DNA of 29,933 nucleotides from Minisyncoccia bacterium. Lineage in GTDB: Bacteria; Patescibacteriota; Minisyncoccia; Phycocordibacterales; UBA9973. Every line of letters starts with the position of its first letter. Positions within the stretch are counted from its first letter, which is position 1. The position numbers and the translations under genes are program-made. The notes under the pieces are model-generated. The model did not search any database, was not told where the DNA came from, and saw only the letters and a program-made list of their open reading frames with translations. The stretch covers positions 1-29,933 of the forward strand of contig JBPCTC010000076.1 in NCBI GenBank assembly GCA_051006535.1, written 5' to 3'. Of this stretch, positions 1,498 through 19,867 are shown in pieces.

Positions 1498-2415
1498 ATG
1501 GCAGCTCAATCAACAACCACAACACTATCACAGCAAATGAGTATATTCTACGACAAGGTTTTCCTTGAACGTGCAATGCTATCTCTACGCTATGACTTCG
1601 GTGCTACAAAGAAAACAATGCCTTTGAATTCTGGTAAAACCATCTACTTCAACCGTATGACTCCTTTGGCAGTACAAACAACAGCACTAACAGAAGGTAC
1701 AACACCAAGTGCAATATCAATGTCTTCAACAATCGTTTCAGCAACTGTTGCACAATACGGTACATACACCGCAGTGTCAGATATGTTCGCTCTAACATCT
1801 ATTGACGTAGGATTGAAAGAACACGTTTCTGTTATGGCTCAAAACGCAGGTGAAACTATCGATACACTTATAGCAGCAGAACTTTCTGCAAACGGTACAA
1901 CACAATTAGCAGGTGCTAAATCAAACATCACTGCAATCGCAGCTACTGACACACTAACAGGTGCAGAAGTTCGTAAAGCAGTTCGTACTTTGAAGAAAAA
2001 CAAAGCTCGTATGTTCCCAGAAGGAATGTTCCGTGCTATCGTTCCTGCTTCTGCAGCGTATGACCTACGTGGAAACACAGAATGGCAAAACTCATTGATA
2101 TATACAGATGCTTCTGACTACAAGAAAGGTGTGCTTGGTTCAATCCACGGCGTACGTTTCGTAGAAACAAACAATGAAGTATTTGAAGCTTCTACTGTAA
2201 GTGTTTACCACACATATATTTTCGGAGACGGTGCTTATGCAATGTTGAACCTAGAAGGACAACCTGCACAACACATCTTCTACAAGATACCTGGTGCAAA
2301 TGACACAAGTAACCCATTGAACCTTTACTCAACAGTCGGATGGGTGGCATACTTCGTTGCGAAGATGCTAAACAGCAACTGGTGTATAATCGTAAAAACT
2401 GGTGTAACTGCATAG
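1498..2415 (+). CDS. Major capsid protein, N4-gp56-like family
   Basis: 305 aa; FYDKVFLERA, MPLNSGKTIYFNR, LTEGTTP, QYGTY, GSIHGVRFVET and DPLN-like NPLNLYSTVGW motifs are typical of this family; strongly biased codon usage; followed by a terminator. Confidence 0.9.
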   Translation: MAAQSTTTTLSQQMSIFYDKVFLERAMLSLRYDFGATKKTMPLNSGKTIYFNRMTPLAVQTTALTEGTTPSAISMSSTIVSATVAQYGTYTAVSDMFALTSIDVGLKEHVSVMAQNAGETIDTLIAAELSANGTTQLAGAKSNITAIAATDTLTGAEVRKAVRTLKKNKARMFPEGMFRAIVPASAAYDLRGNTEWQNSLIYTDASDYKKGVLGSIHGVRFVETNNEVFEASTVSVYHTYIFGDGAYAMLNLEGQPAQHIFYKIPGANDTSNPLNLYSTVGWVAYFVAKMLNSNWCIIVKTGVTA

Positions 2416-2431
2416 TTATAACACTAACAAT

Positions 2432-2458
2432 AGTCCCCTTACGGGGGCTTTTGTTTTT
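2432..2458 (+). terminator. Rho-independent terminator after MCP
   Basis: AGTCCCC-TTAC-GGGGGCT hairpin followed by TTTGTTTTT. Confidence 0.85.
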
Positions 2459-2473
2459 AAATATTAAAAATAG

Positions 2474-2501
2474 TTGCATCTATTTATCTAAGTAGTATAA
2501 T
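2474..2501 (+). promoter_or_regulatory. Sigma70-type promoter, leaderless, for the glycosylation cassette
   Basis: TTGCAT(2474-79)-N16-TATAAT(2496-2501); ATG at 2508, 6 nt downstream. Confidence 0.7.
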
Positions 2502-2507
2502 TATAGT

Positions 2508-2864
2508 ATGACTAATCAAGAATTTGAATTGTATTTACAAAAAGAAATAAGCCCTGAAATTAACTTTCGTCAGAACTCTGGTAACTTAGATATTAAAAGT
2601 ATTTATTATGGTGATGTTTACACGGAAACAGCTATTCCGTCTGGTGATATAAACGAAGAACGTATGCCAAATTATTGTGATAACTTCGGTTACCCACACA
2701 GGGGTTCAAAAGAAGCTACAGAACGTGTTAAGACATTTATAGAACGTTTTAATACTGATATAGAATTTAAGAATGATGTACTTGGTATAGAAATAACAGA
2801 AGAAGTACCTTCTGGTACAGTTGATGTTGAATATAAAACAGATGAAAGTTCTCTTCCAAAATAG
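2508..2864 (+). CDS. Hypothetical acidic protein (118 aa), first gene of the cassette
   Basis: ORF begins at the predicted transcription start; no family recognised. Confidence 0.7.
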   Translation: MTNQEFELYLQKEISPEINFRQNSGNLDIKSIYYGDVYTETAIPSGDINEERMPNYCDNFGYPHRGSKEATERVKTFIERFNTDIEFKNDVLGIEITEEVPSGTVDVEYKTDESSLPK

Positions 2865-3747
2865 AAAAAAAGCTTGGTGGACAGGCGGTGATTACATACA
2901 AATGGAAAACACTGCCAATGCTTTACGCAAAATTGGCGTTGAAATTGATATTTCAGAAGATATGGTAGTACCACCTGATGTTATATCTAAGTATGACATA
3001 GTTCATTTGTGGAACTTTTCTATGAATTGGACTAAATATCAGTTATGGGTAGCACGTAAACATAGAAAACCAGTTGTCTGTTCTATGATTTATCACGAGA
3101 GCGACCAGTTTATACCGTACAATTTCCAGCAAATAATGTTAAATGAGCTTTCAATGCAGATATACTTAACAGAAAGTGAAAAAGAACGAGTAAAACGTCA
3201 TTTAGAAATCAATACCCCAACAGTTGTTATACCTAACGGAATTGATGACTTTTGGTTTAGACCAGTAAATATATCAAAAGACAATATAGTTCTCTCTGTG
3301 GGGCGTATAGAGCCAAATAAAGGGCAATTAGAAGTCGCTCGTGCTTGTAAAAAGCTTGGTATTCCATTTTATTGTGCAGGTGAATGTAACGATGAAGAGT
3401 ATAAAACACAATTATTAGAGAATGATGCAATTTTACTTGGTAAGTTAGAACCTAAAGAACTAATAAACTGGTACGAAAGAGCGAAAGTTGTTGCCCTTGT
3501 AAGTAAAGCAGAGATATTTCCATTAGTTGTTATGGAAGCGATGGCACAAAACTGTCAAATTGTTCTGACAACCACAAGTGAATGGAAACCAGATGTACAT
3601 TATGCAGAATACGGAAACACATTAAGTATATCTAAGGCAATATCTAAGGCTATGAAAGATAACAAAGATTATAAGAGTTTTATAAGCCAGTTTAAGTGGA
3701 ATGATGTAGCTTTAAAAATAAAAAAAATATATGAAGGAATTAGATAA
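2842..3747 (+). CDS. Glycosyltransferase, GT4 / GT-B fold
   Basis: Probable start MKVLFQNR (2842); GGD..QM, DIVHLWN, VIPNGID, VGRIEPNKGQ and the E-X7-E motif EIFPLVVME-AMA. Confidence 0.9.
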   Translation: MKVLFQNRKKAWWTGGDYIQMENTANALRKIGVEIDISEDMVVPPDVISKYDIVHLWNFSMNWTKYQLWVARKHRKPVVCSMIYHESDQFIPYNFQQIMLNELSMQIYLTESEKERVKRHLEINTPTVVIPNGIDDFWFRPVNISKDNIVLSVGRIEPNKGQLEVARACKKLGIPFYCAGECNDEEYKTQLLENDAILLGKLEPKELINWYERAKVVALVSKAEIFPLVVMEAMAQNCQIVLTTTSEWKPDVHYAEYGNTLSISKAISKAMKDNKDYKSFISQFKWNDVALKIKKIYEGIR

Positions 3748-3988
3748 CAAAATCTTAGAACAATTTAAAATAAAGTCCTGCCAATCTGTAAGACACTTAA
3801 TACATAAAGATGTTATGTATGCTGTGTTTATCACTAATAGATTTAGAAAAATAGGATGGATGGCACAAGTAGGTGAAAAATACTACGGGAATATAGCAAA
3901 AATGTCTTTAAAAGAAAAAGACGATATTATTGACTATTATGTTTCTATAGATAAAAATGCTAAAGACAGTATCGAACAACTAATATGA
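3731..3988 (+). CDS. Hypothetical protein (85 aa) within the GT cassette
   Basis: Overlaps both neighbours (ATGA coupling at 3985). Confidence 0.65.
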   Translation: MKELDNKILEQFKIKSCQSVRHLIHKDVMYAVFITNRFRKIGWMAQVGEKYYGNIAKMSLKEKDDIIDYYVSIDKNAKDSIEQLI

Positions 3989-4629
3989 AATTCTCAATCA
4001 TAATGCCGACATTTAATAGACCAGAGTTTATAAATCGTGCTATTAATGGTGTTTTAAATCAGACATATCAGAACTGGGAACTTATCATACAGAATGGTGG
4101 TGATAGTATTTTAGATATTATACCTAAAGACCCTAGAATAATCTTATTTGAAGAAAAAGATGCAGGTATAACTGATGCAATGAATAAAGGACTAAAGAAA
4201 GCAACAGGTGATGTCTTTAATTGGCAGAATGATGACGATTGTTTAAGGTCAGATGCACTTGAAACTGTCTTTAATAGTATTGGCGATAGACAATGGGTTT
4301 ATGGTTTTATCTGTATGCAGGGAAATGGTGGAAATCAAGTGTGGGGTCAGAATTGGGAAGGACTAACAAAATTAAAACAAGCTAATCACGTACCGCAACC
4401 TAGTGTTTTTTGGACAAGAAAAGCTTTAAATGAAGTTGGTTTTATGTGTGAAGAAGAAGACCTTGTTTCTGACTACGAGTATTGGTTAAGACTTGGTTCT
4501 ATTTTTGAACCATTGTTTATAAACAAAGTTTTAGCTGATTATTATATACACGGAAATCAAATAACAGTTAAACAAATGGACGAACAACTAGCTCAAGCAA
4601 AAAGAACCTCGAAAAAATATGATAAGTAG
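3985..4629 (+). CDS. Glycosyltransferase, GT2 / GT-A fold
   Basis: MKFSIIMPTFNRPEFI, NQTYQNWELII, GITDAMNKG, DXD-type NDDD, QPSVFW, DYEYWLR. Confidence 0.92.
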   Translation: MKFSIIMPTFNRPEFINRAINGVLNQTYQNWELIIQNGGDSILDIIPKDPRIILFEEKDAGITDAMNKGLKKATGDVFNWQNDDDCLRSDALETVFNSIGDRQWVYGFICMQGNGGNQVWGQNWEGLTKLKQANHVPQPSVFWTRKALNEVGFMCEEEDLVSDYEYWLRLGSIFEPLFINKVLADYYIHGNQITVKQMDEQLAQAKRTSKKYDK

Positions 4630-5209
4630 GGAAGACTTCGACAAAATAATAAAAGACAATATAGGACAAAATGGTGTCTTTGTTGAAATAGGTGCTTATG
4701 ATGGTGAAACTTTGTCCAATACTTGTCATTTAGCAGATAATGGGTGGGAAGGTCATTATTACGAACCTATAAAAGAATATGCAAATAAATGTTCTGTTCG
4801 TCATAAAGATAATAATGTTAAGGTATATAATTTTGGTATAGGAAAATTAGGAAAAGTTATTATGGGTAAATCTGGTATGTTGTCTACAGTAAAAGACAAA
4901 AACTATCAAGATAAAGTTAGTAAATTGCCTTGGTTTAAAGACACATATTTTGAAGCAATAGAAGTAGATATGAAAGATGTCTCTGTTATCCCAGAGTGTG
5001 ATTTATTAGTCATTGATACAGAAGGCTCTGAATATGATATAATAACAGAGTTACGAATACGACCTAAGGTTCTAATGATTGAATTACACGAACAATCAGG
5101 TGAGTGGCAAGATATTATAAACACTAAAAGTTTAACAAAAATAATAGAAGATATGGGTTACTCAAAAATATACTTTGATGATGTAGACACTATCTTTGTA
5201 AAAATATGA
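4619..5209 (+). CDS. FkbM-family SAM-dependent methyltransferase
   Basis: FVEIGAYDG..SNT, WEG...EP, LLVIDTEGSEYDII, MIELH. Confidence 0.85.
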   Translation: MISREDFDKIIKDNIGQNGVFVEIGAYDGETLSNTCHLADNGWEGHYYEPIKEYANKCSVRHKDNNVKVYNFGIGKLGKVIMGKSGMLSTVKDKNYQDKVSKLPWFKDTYFEAIEVDMKDVSVIPECDLLVIDTEGSEYDIITELRIRPKVLMIELHEQSGEWQDIINTKSLTKIIEDMGYSKIYFDDVDTIFVKI

Positions 5210-6345
5210 AAATAGCATTAATTGGTACAGATTGGAATTCTAATGAAACAAGGAAGAATACTAACGACTATGGTGGTGTAACATATTATCGCTTAATAAA
5301 ACCACTAATGGAATTAGGAAGTGATAAATATGAGTTCACATATCACGGGGCAGACCTTTCCAAAGAAGCAGAAAGTAAAAGTGTTATAGATTTTTGGAGT
5401 GATTTTGTTGATAGATATGATTTGTTTATCGTGAAACATATAGATAACGAAGAAGCTTGTTCTAATCTTCTATTTTTTGTTAGACGTGCTGGTAAAAAGA
5501 TAATACTGGACTTAGATGATAACCTATTTGAAGTTAAAAAAGACCAACCTGCTTATGAATACTATGCACAAGGCAAACCTAAGAGAGCTGTTGTGTCTGC
5601 TCTTATATCTTTAGTGGATGGTTTATTTGTTTCTACTCAACCACTTGCTGATTACTACACTAAACACGTAAAAGATATATTTAATATAGATTTAAAAGTG
5701 TTTGTATTACCAAACTATAATGACAAAAATGATTTTAGTTTTACTAAAACAGAAAAAGACAGCGATAAAATAGTTATAGGGTGGGCAGGTTCAACTACAC
5801 ATTTTGAAGACTTAAAAATAGCTATACCAGCAATAGAAAAACTGCTTAAAGAATACCCTAATTTATACTTTGATTTGATAGGTGGATTGACACACGAAGA
5901 TGCACCTAGACTATTTGAAAACGTTAGTGAAAAAGTTTTGGACAGAGTTTTTGTTGGAAGTGGAACAGAGTCTTGGACAGGATACCCTGAGATGTTATCA
6001 AAACTTAAATGGGACATAGGAATTGCACCACTTACTGATGATGAGTTTAATCGTGGTAAAAGTCATATAAAATGGATGGAGTACGCTTGTTATCAAATAC
6101 CTTGTGTAGCTAGTAAAGTATACCCATACTATATGCCTATATTAGGTCAGAATACTATTGAAGATAATGTTACTGGTATGCTTTGCGAAAAGAAAGACTG
6201 GTATAAAGCATTAAAAACCTTAATAGAAAATAAGGAAATGAGAGAACAAATTGGTAAAAATGCTCAACAATATGTTTTTGAAAATCTACAGTATAAAGAC
6301 CATAGATATTTATGGATTAATGCACTGTCTAGTTTCTGCGAGTAA
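5206..6345 (+). CDS. Glycosyltransferase, GT-B (GT4-like)
   Basis: GGVTYYRLIKP, ILDLDDNLF, IGWAGSTTH, DIGIAPL....FNRGKSHIKWMEYA, PCVAS. Confidence 0.85.
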   Translation: MKIALIGTDWNSNETRKNTNDYGGVTYYRLIKPLMELGSDKYEFTYHGADLSKEAESKSVIDFWSDFVDRYDLFIVKHIDNEEACSNLLFFVRRAGKKIILDLDDNLFEVKKDQPAYEYYAQGKPKRAVVSALISLVDGLFVSTQPLADYYTKHVKDIFNIDLKVFVLPNYNDKNDFSFTKTEKDSDKIVIGWAGSTTHFEDLKIAIPAIEKLLKEYPNLYFDLIGGLTHEDAPRLFENVSEKVLDRVFVGSGTESWTGYPEMLSKLKWDIGIAPLTDDEFNRGKSHIKWMEYACYQIPCVASKVYPYYMPILGQNTIEDNVTGMLCEKKDWYKALKTLIENKEMREQIGKNAQQYVFENLQYKDHRYLWINALSSFCE

Positions 6346-6359
6346 AATGTTAAGTGCCA

Positions 6360-6365
6360 TATAAT
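6360..6365 (+). promoter_or_regulatory. -10 element, leaderless start of the head-completion/tail module
   Basis: TATAAT 6360-65 with ATG at 6372 (6 nt gap); no good -35. Confidence 0.5.
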
Positions 6366-6371
6366 ATAATT

Positions 6372-7106
6372 ATGGTATTTAGTGATACAACAAACAGACA
6401 AGGAATAGTACAGGAGATAGACTTCTTGGTTAATTCGGATAATAACTCTTATCCAATAGAAGATAAAACCCGTAATGTTAATCGTGCTTATGATAAAGCA
6501 GTGTCTTTGATATTACAAGCAGACGGAAGATGGGAATTTGATGACCAAAATGCTACAGATTTACCTATAGCAACAACCGACTTGGTATCAGGTCAGCAAG
6601 ATTATTCTTTTGACCCTACCTTCCTTATTGTTTCACGTGTAGAAGTAAAAGACAGTAATGGAAACTGGACTGCTCTATCACCCTTTTCACAAGCTGATAT
6701 AGTTCGTGGTGGTATTCCTGGCTATATTCCTAGTCAATCGCTTACAGACTTTTTATCACAACCTGGTATTCCTCAATACTATGATAAGTTAGCAAATTCT
6801 ATATTTCTTTACCCAAAACCAAGTTATAGTCAAGACGCTTCTTTGAAAGTGTATTTTCAACGTAATGTTTCATACTTCACGCCAACTGACACAACAAAAC
6901 AGCCTGGTTTCTCTAATATGTTCCATAGACTTCTTTCAATGTCTGCTGCAATGGACTATGCACAGGCTAAAAACTTAGATTTATTAAGAAATCAGCCTTT
7001 CGTCTTAGAACTAGCACAAATGTGGGCTGACTTACAGTCATATTATACAAGAAAAGCAAAAGACGAGAACTTAAATATGCATATTCGTAAATGGAAATGG
7101 AATTAA
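6372..7106 (+). CDS. Putative head-tail adaptor / connector protein
   Basis: Probable start MVFSDTT (6372); NRAYDK, TTDLVSGQQDYSF, PQYY..LANSIFLYPKP and HRLLSM-type motifs seen in podophage adaptors; synteny. Confidence 0.6.
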   Translation: MVFSDTTNRQGIVQEIDFLVNSDNNSYPIEDKTRNVNRAYDKAVSLILQADGRWEFDDQNATDLPIATTDLVSGQQDYSFDPTFLIVSRVEVKDSNGNWTALSPFSQADIVRGGIPGYIPSQSLTDFLSQPGIPQYYDKLANSIFLYPKPSYSQDASLKVYFQRNVSYFTPTDTTKQPGFSNMFHRLLSMSAAMDYAQAKNLDLLRNQPFVLELAQMWADLQSYYTRKAKDENLNMHIRKWKWN

Positions 7107-13916: not shown

Positions 13917-15464
13917 ATGACACCACAAGAAAAACTACTAGAACTATTGCAGAAGCAAAAGAAAGATAAGGAAATGCAAAGTCCTAGTGGTCTTATCGAT
14001 GCTTTAGTAAAAAATGTACAGATGTTAAAAGGTGAACAAGGTATACAAGGTGAACGTGGAGAAAAGGGAGACAAAGGTGATAAGGGAGATAAAGGAGAAA
14101 AGGGAGATAAAGGTGATAATGGTAAAGACGGTAAAAACGGTAAAGATGGTAAAAACGGAATTGATGGTAAAAATGGAAAAGACGGAAATGATGGTATTGA
14201 CGGCAAAGACGGTAAGGATGGAATAAACGGTTCACCTGATACATCAGAAGACATAAGAAATAAACTTGAACTATTAGCAGGTGATGACCGTCTAAAATTA
14301 GATGCTCTTTCAGGTGTAGAAAAGTTTAGGAATAATCTTTTGGAAGTAATGAACCAAGGATTAATGTCTTTAGACAATTTTAAAGGTACTGGTGTAGCAT
14401 TAAATGGTGTAAAAATAGGAAATGCAAATGAAATAAACTTTATAGGTTCTGTTTCTGTTGTAAATAATTCAAACCAAGGTGTAGATGTATCTATTTCAGG
14501 TGGTACTGGCGGAAGTTTAACACTCCAAACAAATGGTACTCCTAACGGTTCTCAAACACTCCTAAACCTAGCATCTACTTCACCTATAAGTGTTGCAGAC
14601 AATGGAACTGGAACTGTTACTATTGGTATTGCTACTGCCGATACTGCAACAACAGGTGCTTTGACCTCTATAGATTGGAATACATTTAATAATAAGGTAA
14701 CTTCTGTATCAGGTACAGTAGGTGAAATAAACGTAACAGGTACTACACAATCACCTGTCGTTGGACTTGCTACCACAGCAGTAACTCCTGGTTCATACAC
14801 TAACGCAAACATAACCGTAGACGCTTACGGACGCATTACACTAGCGTCTAACGGTACTGGTGGTACAGCTACACTAACAGCGACTTATGCTGGTTATGGT
14901 GATGGTACAAATAATCTTACAGGTAACGCAGACTACATATATGACATAAACAACAACTATTTTAAAGTAGGATTTGCTACTAAAAAATACCTTGAACTAG
15001 ATAAAACAAACAACCTATACCAAATAGGTGATTTAGATATTTCTAATAATGGTACATACTTCAAAGTAGATGATGCTACACAGAAATATACACTAAATAA
15101 ACTCCCAAGTAGTACAGTAACATTTAATGGGTTCGTAACTACAGACTCTAGTGGCGTGCTAGGCGTAGATACAAACAGATACTATACTCGTTCAACAACA
15201 GTAACCAATATAAGTTTATCTGCAGGTTCAAATACATATACAGATTACAAATACATTTGTACTACAACACTTACTCTTACACTACCAGACCCAACAACTA
15301 TCACGCAAAATCACTACACTATCGCAACTAACGGTTCAGGTACAATACTAGTAGATACTGTAGCAGGTCTTATCAATGGGTCGTCCACTTATTCACTTAA
15401 CGGTTCACTATATGAAGTCATAACAGTAATGTCAGACGGACTAGGTAACTATGTAATTATATAA
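13917..15464 (+). CDS. Collagen-like-repeat fibre protein
   Basis: 23 Gly-X-Y triplets followed by T/S/G/N-rich fibre segments (GSYTNANITVDAYGRITLASNG). Confidence 0.8.
   Translation: MTPQEKLLELLQKQKKDKEMQSPSGLIDALVKNVQMLKGEQGIQGERGEKGDKGDKGDKGEKGDKGDNGKDGKNGKDGKNGIDGKNGKDGNDGIDGKDGKDGINGSPDTSEDIRNKLELLAGDDRLKLDALSGVEKFRNNLLEVMNQGLMSLDNFKGTGVALNGVKIGNANEINFIGSVSVVNNSNQGVDVSISGGTGGSLTLQTNGTPNGSQTLLNLASTSPISVADNGTGTVTIGIATADTATTGALTSIDWNTFNNKVTSVSGTVGEINVTGTTQSPVVGLATTAVTPGSYTNANITVDAYGRITLASNGTGGTATLTATYAGYGDGTNNLTGNADYIYDINNNYFKVGFATKKYLELDKTNNLYQIGDLDISNNGTYFKVDDATQKYTLNKLPSSTVTFNGFVTTDSSGVLGVDTNRYYTRSTTVTNISLSAGSNTYTDYKYICTTTLTLTLPDPTTITQNHYTIATNGSGTILVDTVAGLINGSSTYSLNGSLYEVITVMSDGLGNYVII
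14031..14237 (+). repeat. Gly-X-Y collagen-like repeat (GDK/GKD/GKN)
   Basis: GEQ GIQ GER GEK GDK ... GIN GSP, 9-nt periodic repeat. Confidence 0.95.
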
Positions 15465-19651: not shown

Positions 19652-19867
19652 ATGAAACAAATTAAATCAGCAATAATTTCAGCACTACTTGTAGCGATTA
19701 TAGCCACATTAGGTTATATAACTACTGTTGGTAGTATATGGAAAATAGACTGGCGAGTTATAATAGATGTTGGTGTTATGTCATTAACAACTGGCTTAGC
19801 GTCAATTCTAAAAAACTTGCTAACAACTGGTAATGGGAAATTCCTAGGAATAATCAAACACCAATAA
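19652..19867 (+). CDS. Putative holin (2 TM, 71 aa)
   Basis: Two hydrophobic helices and a basic C-terminus. Confidence 0.6.
   Translation: MKQIKSAIISALLVAIIATLGYITTVGSIWKIDWRVIIDVGVMSLTTGLASILKNLLTTGNGKFLGIIKHQ

What the first reader, a model, noticed from the sequence alone, without database searches (positions are those of the whole stretch)
2474..6345. Self-contained glycosylation and O-methylation cassette placed directly behind the major capsid gene
Seen: after the MCP terminator a new promoter drives a coupled run of hypothetical, GT4, hypothetical, GT2, FkbM methyltransferase and a second GT-B enzyme, and a further -10 starts the tail module right after. Established: GT2/GT4 enzymes build oligosaccharides from nucleotide sugars, FkbM-family enzymes methylate small substrates including sugars, and some mycobacteriophages glycosylate their virions using GTs encoded among structural genes. 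Inference: a three-GT plus methyltransferase pathway building a methyl-capped glycan on the virion. Alternatives are host-surface conversion or DNA glycosylation, though no base-hydroxymethylase is visible in this window. The two unknown ORFs (2508, 3731) are candidate adaptors that target the enzymes. This is the best candidate for a little-described system here.
Basis: partly seen in the sequence, partly recalled or inferred. Interest (0 to 1): 0.75.

Follow-up and report, generated by a model that had tools for sequence, protein, structure and literature searches.

The report
Capsid-adjacent variable glycan island in phage
An uncultured short-tailed phage carries a six-gene sugar-transferase and methyltransferase operon between its capsid gene and its head-tail adaptor gene; its two end genes are fixed and its middle is swapped among hundreds of related phages, so it most likely coats the virus particle with a variable methylated sugar, though the target is not proven.

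Summary
After the terminator of the N4-gp56-type capsid gene, a TATAAT-N6-ATG promoter starts six overlapping genes. These are an unknown 118-aa protein (h118), a GT4, an unknown 85-aa protein (h85), a GT2, an FkbM methyltransferase and a second GT-B enzyme (GTB2). A second TATAAT-N6-ATG then starts the SU10-type adaptor gene.

The position is not random.
- All 10 close relatives found through the capsid protein keep capsid, h118, GT4, a variable middle, GTB2 and adaptor in that order.
- A search anchored on GTB2 found at least 537 viral stretches. Of 78 new loci, 73 have this capsid gene upstream, 64 have h118 and 49 have the adaptor just downstream.
- The stretch between h118 and GTB2 is 0 to 5.8 kb. 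It holds sugar dehydratases, aminotransferases, other GTs and at least six unrelated methyltransferase families.
- The best 120 GTB2 relatives all lie on contigs of 41.5 kb or less, so GTB2 looks like a phage lineage gene.

All six proteins are soluble. No DNA hydroxymethylating enzyme, integrase or Gtr-type membrane protein was found.

Best reading (about 0.55): glycosylation of a virion protein, primed by GTB2 with h118. The acceptor is unproven. Both unknown proteins fold confidently but match no known fold.

This scan has noted similar cassettes on other DNA. It is a new variant of a known kind.

The parts
1498..2415 (+). Major capsid protein, N4-gp56 family. It is the upstream anchor of the island.
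   Evidence: TIGR04387 at 172 bits against a cutoff of 60; Phage_capsid_4; phrog_1357 at 6.6e-54.
2432..2459 (+). Intrinsic-terminator-like hairpin with a T-tract after the capsid gene.
   Evidence: Comparable hairpins follow the capsid gene in relatives L003, L004 and L116.
2474..2501 (+). Promoter-like TTGCAT-N16-TATAAT. The -10 box lies 6 nt before the ATG, so the mRNA would be leaderless.
   Evidence: Sequence read. TATAAT-N6-ATG is enriched, 6 against 0.89 expected. The motif is conserved in L003.
2508..2864 (+). h118: a small acidic protein of an unnamed family, always placed directly after the capsid gene and upstream of GTB2. It is a candidate partner or acceptor of GTB2.
   Evidence: No Pfam, PHROG or NCBIfam hit. 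The family has 98 representative clusters. The model has pLDDT 86 and no fold match.
2842..3747 (+). GT4-type GT-B glycosyltransferase. The listed ORF starts at TTG 2821; the likely start is ATG 2842.
   Evidence: Glycos_transf_1 at 9.5e-16 and Glyco_transf_4 at 1.8e-7. An EX7E-like motif is visible in the translation. Relatives align from residue 8-9.
3731..3988 (+). h85: a small unknown protein found only in the closest subclade.
   Evidence: No family hit. Homologues occur only in L003, L004 and L005. The model has pLDDT 85 and only generic alpha-beta4-alpha matches with Z of 6.9 or less.
3985..4629 (+). GT2 (GT-A fold) glycosyltransferase with an NDDD motif.
   Evidence: Glycos_transf_2 at 1.4e-20. 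The nearest solved relatives are the chondroitin synthase GT2 domain, TarP and GalT1.
4619..5209 (+). FkbM-family SAM-dependent methyltransferase, presumably a sugar O-methyltransferase.
   Evidence: Methyltransf_21 at 50.8 bits against a cutoff of 22.7. TIGR01444 scores 29.8 bits, below its cutoff of 37.7. No homologue in any related locus.
5206..6345 (+). GTB2: a GT-B glycosyltransferase found only on phage-sized contigs. It is the conserved downstream anchor of the island and the proposed priming enzyme.
   Evidence: phrog_7162 at 2e-37. Glycos_transf_1 matches the C-terminal half only. Invariant D102/D104/D105, H199, K285, K289 and E292 across 29-71% identity. 407 homologue clusters; the best 120 are all on contigs of 41.5 kb or less.
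6360..6374 (+). TATAAT-N6-ATG that starts the tail module.
6372..7106 (+). SU10-type head-tail adaptor. It is the downstream flank of the island.
   Evidence: SU10_adaptor at 4.1e-8. It directly follows GTB2 in 49 of 78 related loci.

Best explanation
The cassette is a late, self-contained operon of the virion structural module. It builds a short methyl-capped glycan on a phage structural protein in the host cytoplasm, using host nucleotide sugars. The proposed order is inferred. GTB2 is the conserved, phage-specific GT-B enzyme with a divergent N-terminal (acceptor-side) domain. It adds the first sugar, working with or on the small protein h118. The GT4 and GT2 enzymes extend the chain and the FkbM enzyme O-methylates it. 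Across the phage lineage the two anchors (h118 next to the capsid gene, GTB2 next to the adaptor gene) stay fixed, while the genes between them are exchanged. Related phages would therefore display different glycans, much as a bacterial O-antigen locus or flagellin glycosylation island varies. What is shown: the gene identities, the operon structure, the fixed site, the variable content, the solubility of the proteins, and the restriction of GTB2 to phage-sized contigs. What is inferred: the acceptor, the order of reactions, the role of h118 and the biological benefit.
For: 1. Operon anatomy: a terminator, then a TATAAT-N6-ATG promoter, six overlapping genes, and the next promoter.
2. Enzyme families.
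3. Close relatives: all 10 relatives found through the capsid protein with 67-93% capsid identity keep capsid, h118, GT4, a variable middle, GTB2 and adaptor.
4. GTB2-anchored scan of IMG/VR: at least 537 relatives. Of 78 new loci, 73 have the capsid gene upstream, 64 have h118 and 49 have the adaptor within 1.1 kb. The island is 0 to 5.8 kb long.
5. Island contents are sugar chemistry: NDP-sugar 4,6-dehydratase/epimerase, DegT aminotransferase, TOD1/MUCI70, GT2, GT4, cytidylyltransferase, PhyH and several methyltransferase families.
6. The best 120 GTB2 homologues all sit on contigs of 41.5 kb or less, so GTB2 is inherited with the structural module rather than recently taken from a host.
7. 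Catalytic-type residues of GTB2 are invariant.
8. None of the six proteins has a transmembrane segment.
9. Precedents: cluster O mycobacteriophages carry three tandem GTs next to an O-methyltransferase that modify capsid and tail tube (PMC11600133, citing Freeman 2023). The glycans sit at subunit C-termini (PMC12619734). Chlorovirus A064R and A061L add and methylate the terminal rhamnose of the capsid glycan (PMC9614988).
Against: No acceptor is shown. The capsid protein has no C-terminal extension: it ends ...KTGVTA, as in relatives without a cassette, unlike the mycobacteriophage case. The nearest named families of the GT4 and GT2 (PglH/I/J, Agl16, TuaC/G, WcaA, EpsE) act on lipid-linked oligosaccharides, although all these scores are far below the family cutoffs. 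The TATAAT-N6-ATG motif also heads non-structural units at 19652 and 21594, so late timing rests on position alone. GTB2 has no detectable homologue among the listed mycobacteriophage hits. The contig is incomplete: terminase and portal are missing and were not found elsewhere in the bin.
Confidence: 0.55

Rival explanations
1. Host envelope remodelling. The soluble GTs act at the cytoplasmic face on the host's lipid-linked glycan intermediates or glycolipids. This would change cell-wall or surface glycans during infection, for example to block superinfection or to prevent progeny phage from re-adsorbing to lysed cells.
For: The nearest named GT4 and GT2 families work on undecaprenyl- or dolichyl-linked acceptors. 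The GT2 resembles TarP, a prophage-encoded wall teichoic acid GT. One GTB2 homologue carries an automatic name as a diacylglycerol glucosyltransferase. Published work on pelagimyophages interprets GTs in their hypervariable region this way (PMC7029224).
Against: There is no flippase, polymerase, initiating phosphoglycosyl transferase or Gtr-type membrane protein, and no transmembrane segment. No integrase or repressor was found. GTB2 and h118 occur only on phage-sized contigs, at a fixed site inside the capsid-to-adaptor junction, across capsid identities from about 93% down to about 30%. That is the pattern of a core morphogenesis gene, not of a moron. All GT family scores are far below the equivalog cutoffs.
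Confidence: 0.22
2. DNA hypermodification. The GTs and the methyltransferase decorate hydroxymethylated bases of phage DNA with a short methylated glycan to evade restriction.
For: Phage GT arrays that build glycans on 5hmC DNA are known (bioRxiv 10.1101/2023.12.21.572611; PMC13326640). The window encodes two DNA methyltransferases.
Against: The two methyltransferases are MT-A70 and N6/N4 types, not C5 types. No TET/5mYOX enzyme, dCMP/dUMP hydroxymethylase or thymidylate-synthase-like enzyme is present in 29.9 kb. The parts of the complete 40-kb relative MW202801.1 that were read, positions 1-36216, list none either. The cassette lies in the structural module, not the replication module.
Confidence: 0.05
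3. Glycosylation of a non-virion target. The target could be a host protein such as a pilin or S-layer protein, or a free oligosaccharide or small molecule made late in infection. h118 might be the carrier.
For: The acceptor is unknown. h118 has conserved polar residues (E7, D28, Y33, P44, Y56, D58, H64, R65) that would fit a binding or carrier role. Island content resembles natural-product sugar tailoring: DegT, a C-methyltransferase and PhyH.
Against: This does not explain the strict placement between the capsid and adaptor genes. No export or regulatory genes are present.
Confidence: 0.1

Closest known systems
Mycobacteriophage virion glycosylation (Che8 and cluster O Corndog-type phages; Freeman et al. 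2023, seen here only as cited in PMC11600133 and PMC12619734)
   Same: The phage encodes tandem glycosyltransferases plus an O-methyltransferase, associated with virion genes. The enzymes are soluble. The presumed result is a glycan coat on structural proteins.
   Different: Those phages are siphoviruses of Actinobacteria, and their glycans sit on C-terminal tails of the capsid and tail-tube subunits. Here the phage is a podovirus-type with an N4-gp56 capsid and an SU10 adaptor, and the capsid protein has no C-terminal tail. The island sits at a fixed capsid-adaptor junction, with a conserved h118 and GTB2 pair and a hypervariable middle. GTB2 gave no mycobacteriophage among the listed hits. 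Nothing here is experimentally shown.
Chlorovirus PBCV-1 capsid glycan enzymes A064R (two rhamnosyltransferase domains plus a methyltransferase domain) and A061L (methyltransferase) (PMC9614988)
   Same: The virus encodes soluble GTs together with sugar O-methyltransferases that finish a capsid glycan with a methylated terminal sugar. Glycan variants define antigenic classes.
   Different: That is a eukaryotic giant virus with N-linked glycans, multidomain enzymes and genes not placed beside the capsid gene. No sequence relationship was tested.
Bacterial flagellin glycosylation islands (PMC4875605)
   Same: A variable cassette of GTs, FkbM and other methyltransferases and sugar-synthesis genes lies directly beside the gene for the polymerising structural protein it modifies. 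Content varies between strains.
   Different: Those are cellular loci whose acceptor is flagellin. Homology of GTB2 to Maf or FlmG-type enzymes was not tested here.
Uncultured podovirus MW202801.1 (Manatee Spring, 40,140 bp, circular)
   Same: The gene order is terminase, portal, capsid protein, a sugar cassette (radical SAM, GT, PhyH, methyltransferase, NodB-like, and a GTB2 homologue at E 3e-32), then tail genes.
   Different: Its capsid protein is only about 27% identical. No h118 was detected there with the blast and h118 profile searches used. The enzyme set differs. It is annotated but not studied.
GtfA/GtfB two-component O-GlcNAc transferase of serine-rich-repeat adhesins (from my own knowledge, not checked here)
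   Same: A GT-B catalytic enzyme needs a separate partner protein that recognises the protein acceptor. This is a conceptual precedent for h118 acting with GTB2.
   Different: GtfB is itself a large GT-B-fold protein, whereas h118 is about 98 aa with a small alpha-beta fold. No homology is apparent.

Membership tests
Phage-encoded virion glycosylation system (mycobacteriophage type) | Phage-encoded GTs, with or without an O-methyltransferase, placed within or next to the virion structural genes | tested here: met
   Three GTs and an FkbM methyltransferase lie between the capsid and adaptor genes. The site is conserved in relatives.
Phage-encoded virion glycosylation system (mycobacteriophage type) | Glycans demonstrated on capsid or tail subunits by mass spectrometry or staining | not testable with these tools
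   The phage is uncultured and no protein data exist. No RNA run holds the stretch.
Phage-encoded virion glycosylation system (mycobacteriophage type) | C-terminal acceptor tail on the capsid or tail-tube subunit | tested here: not met
   The capsid protein is 305 aa and ends ...KTGVTA. Its C-terminus is collinear with and conserved in relatives without a cassette. A podovirus has no tail tube.
Phage-encoded virion glycosylation system (mycobacteriophage type) | Sequence homology of the GTs to the characterised mycobacteriophage enzymes | tested here: inconclusive
   A tblastn search with GTB2 against 50,697 phage records hit Escherichia, Klebsiella, Arthrobacter and Streptomyces phages. No Mycobacterium phage appeared among the named groups. 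GT4 and GT2 were not searched this way.
CAZy GT4-like / Pfam Glycos_transf_1 (GT-B) | A Pfam score above the gathering threshold and an EX7E-type C-terminal motif | tested here: met
   2842-3747 scores 58.2 bits against 26.4, with the motif E-IFPLVVM-E. 5206-6345 scores 32.6 bits against 26.4, with invariant K285, K289 and E292.
CAZy GT2-like / Pfam Glycos_transf_2 (GT-A) | A Pfam score above the gathering threshold and a DXD motif | tested here: met
   74.3 bits against 23.3. An NDDD motif lies near residue 83.
FkbM methyltransferase family (PF05050 / TIGR01444) | A family model score above the curated cutoff | tested here: inconclusive
   The Pfam score is 50.8 bits against a cutoff of 22.7, which is met. 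The NCBIfam TIGR01444 score is 29.8 bits against a cutoff of 37.7, which is not met. The substrate is unknown.
N4-gp56 family major capsid protein (TIGR04387) | An equivalog model score above the cutoff | tested here: met
   172.4 bits against a cutoff of 60, covering residues 6-302.
Gtr-type O-antigen/serotype conversion (GtrA, GtrB, Gtr-type-specific) | A membrane flippase, a membrane-anchored bactoprenol GT and a polytopic serotype-specific GT, usually in a temperate phage | tested here: not met
   No hydrophobic 19-residue window above 1.7 in any cassette protein. The only link is a weak N-terminal match to phrog_22739. No integrase was found.
Phage DNA glycosylation / hypermodification | An enzyme that creates the hydroxymethyl or hydroxy pyrimidine acceptor (dCMP/dUMP hydroxymethylase, or C5-methyltransferase plus TET/5mYOX) encoded with the GTs | tested here: not met
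   Only MT-A70 and N6_N4 methyltransferases were found. No such enzyme was found among the window ORFs that were scanned, which include every ORF long enough to encode one. The window lacks about 5-10 kb of the genome.

The most novel reading that the evidence does not exclude
h118 plus GTB2 is a previously undescribed, phage-specific two-component protein glycosyltransferase. It primes the N4-gp56-type capsid protein (or h118 itself as a decoration protein). The island between the two genes acts as a 'virion serotype' locus, exchanged by recombination across a very large clade of uncultured freshwater and sediment podoviruses. Some of these may infect ultra-small Patescibacteria. Virion glycan diversity would then be a major and overlooked axis of phage variation.
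Probability: 0.3. Interest if true: 0.75.

Novelty: new variant of a known kind. Interest (0 to 1): 0.55.

Why it matters
Virion glycosylation by phage-encoded enzymes has been shown only for a few actinobacteriophages and, among other viruses, for giant algal viruses. Here a fixed-site, content-variable sugar island marks a whole lineage of environmental podoviruses: at least 537 IMG/VR stretches and 407 protein clusters. If these glycans sit on the particle, they would affect adsorption, stability, aggregation, grazing and recognition by hosts. The h118 and GTB2 pair would be a new protein-glycosylation tool. The possible link to ultra-small bacteria also matters, because almost nothing is known about their phages.

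Tried and rejected
- Folds of the two unknown ORFs. Both models are confident (pLDDT 86 and 85). PDB Foldseek was run for h118 only; VIA-align wide and AFDB clusters were run for both. They gave only generic small alpha/beta matches. For h118 the best were Z 4.7 (HicA-like) and TfoX_N at E 2.6e-3. For h85 the best was Z 6.9 (roadblock, profilin or chaperone-like). No function can be read from them.
- ESM Atlas look-ups for both gave nothing usable.
- h118 is not homologous to the small ORFs that follow the capsid gene in relatives without a cassette: hhalign probability about 0.1%. It has no match in 50,697 GenBank phage records.
- Host link. Capsid relatives occur in only 1 of 300 other genomes of the bin's order. 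The FkbM gene has no close homologue there. Terminase and portal are not elsewhere in the bin, and the window is the bin's most deviant contig by tetranucleotide use (r = 0.927). Host assignment therefore stays tentative. The only support is that relative L034 is binned in a Paceibacterota MAG and that distant capsid relatives are prophages in Saccharibacteria.
- Acceptor sites in the capsid protein. Three clade-specific Ser/Thr positions were found (T68, T123, S130). The contrast is confounded by phylogeny and I give it no weight.
- Generality across the capsid family. The cassette is not a general trait of N4-gp56-type capsids. With home-made GT profiles, none of the roughly 70 Bacillota and Saccharibacteria loci show GTs near the capsid gene. 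Those profiles have limited sensitivity.
- PDB sequence searches gave no close solved relative for GTB2 or the FkbM enzyme.
- The Freeman 2023 paper itself is not held. It is cited only through other papers.

Full report
**What the window is.**
- The window is the whole of contig C76, 29,933 bp. It is the largest contig of a 526-kb, 90-contig MAG that is 91% complete.
- Genomes of the same order are 0.5-0.9 Mb even when about 100% complete, so the bin is an ultra-small-genome bacterium of the Patescibacteria type.
- The contig itself is a phage fragment. It runs from small ORFs and a scaffold-like ORF through the capsid protein, the cassette, an SU10-type adaptor and fibre-like proteins (one with collagen repeats). 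Then come an SLT-domain protein, an M15 peptidase, and an early region with MT-A70 and N6/N4 DNA methyltransferases, an ERF recombinase and YopX.
- It has no terminal repeats and no tRNA genes. Terminase and portal are missing and are not elsewhere in the bin.
- C76 is the bin's most deviant contig by tetranucleotide use.
- The DNA occurs in freshwater sediment metagenomes.

**Checking the observation.**
- The capsid gene (1498-2415) is followed by a GC-rich hairpin and T-tract at 2432-2459.
- TTGCAT-N16-TATAAT lies at 2474-2501, and its -10 box is 6 nt before the ATG at 2508.
- TATAAT-N6-ATG occurs six times in the window against 0.89 expected, and 0 of 100 shuffles reach six. All six are on the + strand and at gene starts: 2508, 6372, 10318, 13917, 19652 and 21594. 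This confirms the leaderless-promoter note e1-5315627. It also delimits the cassette as its own transcription unit between the capsid terminator and the adaptor promoter.
- The six ORFs overlap at every junction by 23, 17, 4, 11 and 4 nt.
- Pfam, PHROG and NCBIfam assign a GT4-like GT-B enzyme, a GT2, an FkbM methyltransferase and a second GT-B enzyme (phrog_7162). The 118-aa and 85-aa ORFs have no family.
- The capsid protein passes the N4-gp56 equivalog model at 172 bits against a cutoff of 60.
- There are two small corrections. The GT4 probably starts at ATG 2842 (MKVLFQN...), because relatives align from residue 8-9. The adaptor probably starts at ATG 6372.

**Is the position random among relatives?** No.
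- A capsid-anchored scan of IMG/VR gave 31 loci.
- Nine of them have 67-93% capsid identity (L003-L011). All nine carry h118 and GT4 straight after the capsid gene. Those with enough sequence continue through a variable middle to GTB2 and the adaptor.
- In a scan of species-representative genomes, the closest hit with downstream sequence (L034, binned in a Paceibacterota MAG) has the minimal form: capsid, h118, GT4, GTB2.
- The middle differs between close relatives.
  - L003 has an unrelated GT2 plus a Methyltransf_23 enzyme.
  - L004 has another GT2.
  - L005 has an NDP-sugar dehydratase/epimerase, a GT2-like protein and a Nucleotid_trans GT.
  - L009 has a Methyltransf_11 enzyme and an epimerase.
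  - L010 has an epimerase.
- The window's GT2 is about 50% identical to the GT2 of the subclade with 67% capsid identity. It is not detectably similar to the GT2s of the phages with 92-93% capsid identity. The window's FkbM gene has no homologue in any relative. Both points indicate exchange within the island.

**The h118 and GTB2 core.**
- A profile of h118 finds 98 representative clusters among 1.84 billion proteins. All are about 95-110 aa.
- Six of these were traced to contigs. Their capsid proteins are 50-59% identical to the window's. Every contig with enough sequence shows capsid, h118, 0-2 small ORFs, then GTB2. The two long contigs (L116, L118) continue into the adaptor.
- I then anchored a scan on GTB2 alone (alignment A7). 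At least 597 IMG/VR stretches matched the patterns, 537 were confirmed, and 78 new loci were kept.
- I mapped these with my own HMMs. 73 of 78 have the N4-gp56-type capsid gene upstream. 64 of 78 have h118 directly after it. 49 of 78 have the SU10-type adaptor within 1.1 kb after GTB2.
- The distance from h118 to GTB2 is bimodal: 443 bp or less in 26 loci, and 2.2-5.8 kb in 38 loci.
- Representatives of the island gene clusters are mostly sugar enzymes:

| Island gene cluster | Loci |
|---|---|
| NDP-sugar 4,6-dehydratase/epimerase | 28 |
| DegT/DnrJ/EryC1 aminotransferase | 23 |
| TOD1/MUCI70 GT-like protein (separate, or fused to GTB2) | 21 |
| Unknown protein, about 271 aa | 16 |
| GT2 | 13 |
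| GT4 | 10 |
| Methyltransf_24, _11 and _23 | several each |
| Cytidylyltransferase | 6 |
| Unknown protein, about 284 aa | 6 |
| Unknown protein, about 166 aa | 5 |
| PhyH dioxygenase | 2 |
| Homing endonucleases | 2 each |
| NDP-hexose C-methyltransferase | 1 |

- A protein search found 407 GTB2 clusters. The best 120 all lie on contigs of 41.5 kb or less, and many are 32-41 kb, the size of a phage genome. GTB2 is therefore a lineage gene of these phages, not a recent host acquisition.
- Its N-terminal acidic cluster (D102, D104, D105) and its C-terminal H199, K285, K289 and E292 are invariant across 29-71% identity. This indicates an active enzyme.

**Outside this lineage.**
- More distant capsid relatives (45% identity or less) mostly go from the capsid gene through a small unrelated ORF straight to the adaptor. 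The Saccharibacteria prophages have siphovirus-like tails and no cassette.
- With my limited GT profiles, no GT is seen near the capsid gene in about 70 Bacillota loci.
- Other sugar cassettes do occur at the same junction:
  - MW202801.1 from a Florida spring has radical SAM, GT, PhyH, methyltransferase, NodB-like and GTB2-like genes.
  - L018 and L019 have a GroES-like gene plus a GTB2-TOD1 fusion.
  - L044 has Cpn60, an epimerase, a nucleotidyltransferase, a methyltransferase and an SDR.

**The unknown ORFs.**
- The h118 model (pLDDT 86) is an alpha-beta3-alpha2 fold with a disordered acidic tail. It has no significant structural match: best Z 4.7, and TfoX_N at E 2.6e-3.
- The family conserves E7, D28, Y33, P44, Y56, D58, G61, H64 and R65.
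- h118 is not related to the post-capsid ORFs of relatives without a cassette. It is absent from GenBank phages.
- The h85 model (pLDDT 85) is an alpha-beta4-alpha fold with only generic matches. Homologues occur only in the closest subclade.
- The strict linkage of h118 to the capsid gene and GTB2 fits either a targeting partner or an acceptor. I cannot tell which.

**Mechanism and rivals.**
- All six proteins lack transmembrane segments.
- There is no flippase, polymerase, initiating transferase or Gtr-type protein. No integrase or repressor was found.
- No enzyme makes hydroxymethyl-pyrimidines, either here or in the parts of the complete relative MW202801.1 that were read, positions 1-36216.
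- These results, with the fixed place inside the morphogenesis module, make virion-protein glycosylation the best reading (about 0.55). I propose GTB2 (with h118) as the priming step, GT4 and GT2 as extenders, and FkbM as the cap.
- Non-homologous methyltransferases recur across islands (FkbM, Methyltransf_11, _23, _24, _13/14). This suggests that methylated sugars are a selected feature, as in chlorovirus capsid glycans (PMC9614988) and in cluster O mycobacteriophages, which combine three GTs with an O-methyltransferase (PMC11600133).
- Points against the main reading: no acceptor is shown. The capsid protein has no C-terminal tail of the kind glycosylated in mycobacteriophages (PMC12619734). 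The nearest named GT families act on lipid-linked glycans, at scores far below their cutoffs.
- Rival confidences: host-envelope remodelling about 0.22, a non-virion target about 0.1, and DNA glycosylation about 0.05.

**Comparison and novelty.**
- The kind of system is known: virion glycosylation by phage-encoded enzymes, and more loosely a glycosylation island placed beside the gene for the structural protein it modifies (flagellin islands, PMC4875605).
- Published metagenomic work has noted GTs near capsid genes in archaeal viruses (PMC11706807).
- Targeted literature searches found no description of this architecture: an N4-gp56 capsid gene, h118, a hypervariable island, GTB2 and an SU10 adaptor.
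- Within this scan, similar capsid-adaptor GT cassettes have been noted repeatedly on other DNA. 82 notes match the search words, among them e1-3265993, e1-3294535 and e1-3668328.
- I rate this a new variant of a known kind, of moderate interest. The main open point is experimental proof of the acceptor.

Noticed in passing
window 2496, 6360, 10306, 13905, 19640, 21582: TATAAT lies exactly 6 nt before the ATG at six gene or module starts, all on the + strand. The count is 6 against 0.89 expected by shuffling. This suggests leaderless mRNAs for each module.
   Followed up: partly
L018:3953-4222, L019:5632-5901, L044:11971-13500: Related phages encode a GroES-like protein (judged by eye; L018's copy gave no Pfam hit and L019's was not scanned) or a Cpn60-family chaperonin (PF00118, 6.6e-48) close downstream of the capsid gene (directly after it in L018 and L019, about 2 kb downstream in L044), next to sugar genes.
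   Followed up: no
L022:11267-12088: An SU10-type adaptor homologue carries a type I dockerin domain (PF00404, 1.4e-8), which is unusual for a head-tail adaptor.
   Followed up: no
L150:6218-6838, L168:5948-6454: Homing-endonuclease-type genes (NUMOD3; HNH plus AP2) sit inside the glycan islands of some relatives. They could help exchange of island content.
   Followed up: no
L018:4436-6184 and L177-L202 (GT-B ORFs of about 1.7 kb); L158:7261-8004: In L018 GTB2 is fused to a C-terminal TOD1/MUCI70 GT-like domain (Pfam). Similar GT-B ORFs of about 1.7 kb in many distant relatives probably are too, but were not scanned. In other loci the same domain is a separate gene immediately upstream of GTB2. 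This is a fusion-type link between two transferases.
   Followed up: partly
window 13917-15464: A fibre-like protein carries collagen triple-helix repeats (PF01391, 1.2e-14) and 14 N-x-S/T sequons. It is a possible alternative glycan acceptor.
   Followed up: no
L038-L043, L072 (for example CAURZF010000001.1, a 714-kb contig): Capsid proteins 42-45% identical to the window's lie inside long Saccharibacteria (TM7) contigs, next to siphovirus-type tail genes. They are probably integrated prophages of Patescibacteria that share this capsid lineage.
   Followed up: partly
L027, L031, L033 and many Clostridia loci (L060-L113): Capsid matches in many Bacillota-associated relatives span about 1150-1200 nt instead of about 915 nt, or are split into two blocks. 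This suggests an inserted domain in the capsid protein.
   Followed up: no
G000 contig C76 compared with the rest of the bin: The phage contig is the largest contig of the bin and its most atypical by tetranucleotide use (r = 0.927 against 0.945-0.993). Its terminase and portal genes are not in the bin. The contig may be mis-binned rather than host-linked.
   Followed up: partly
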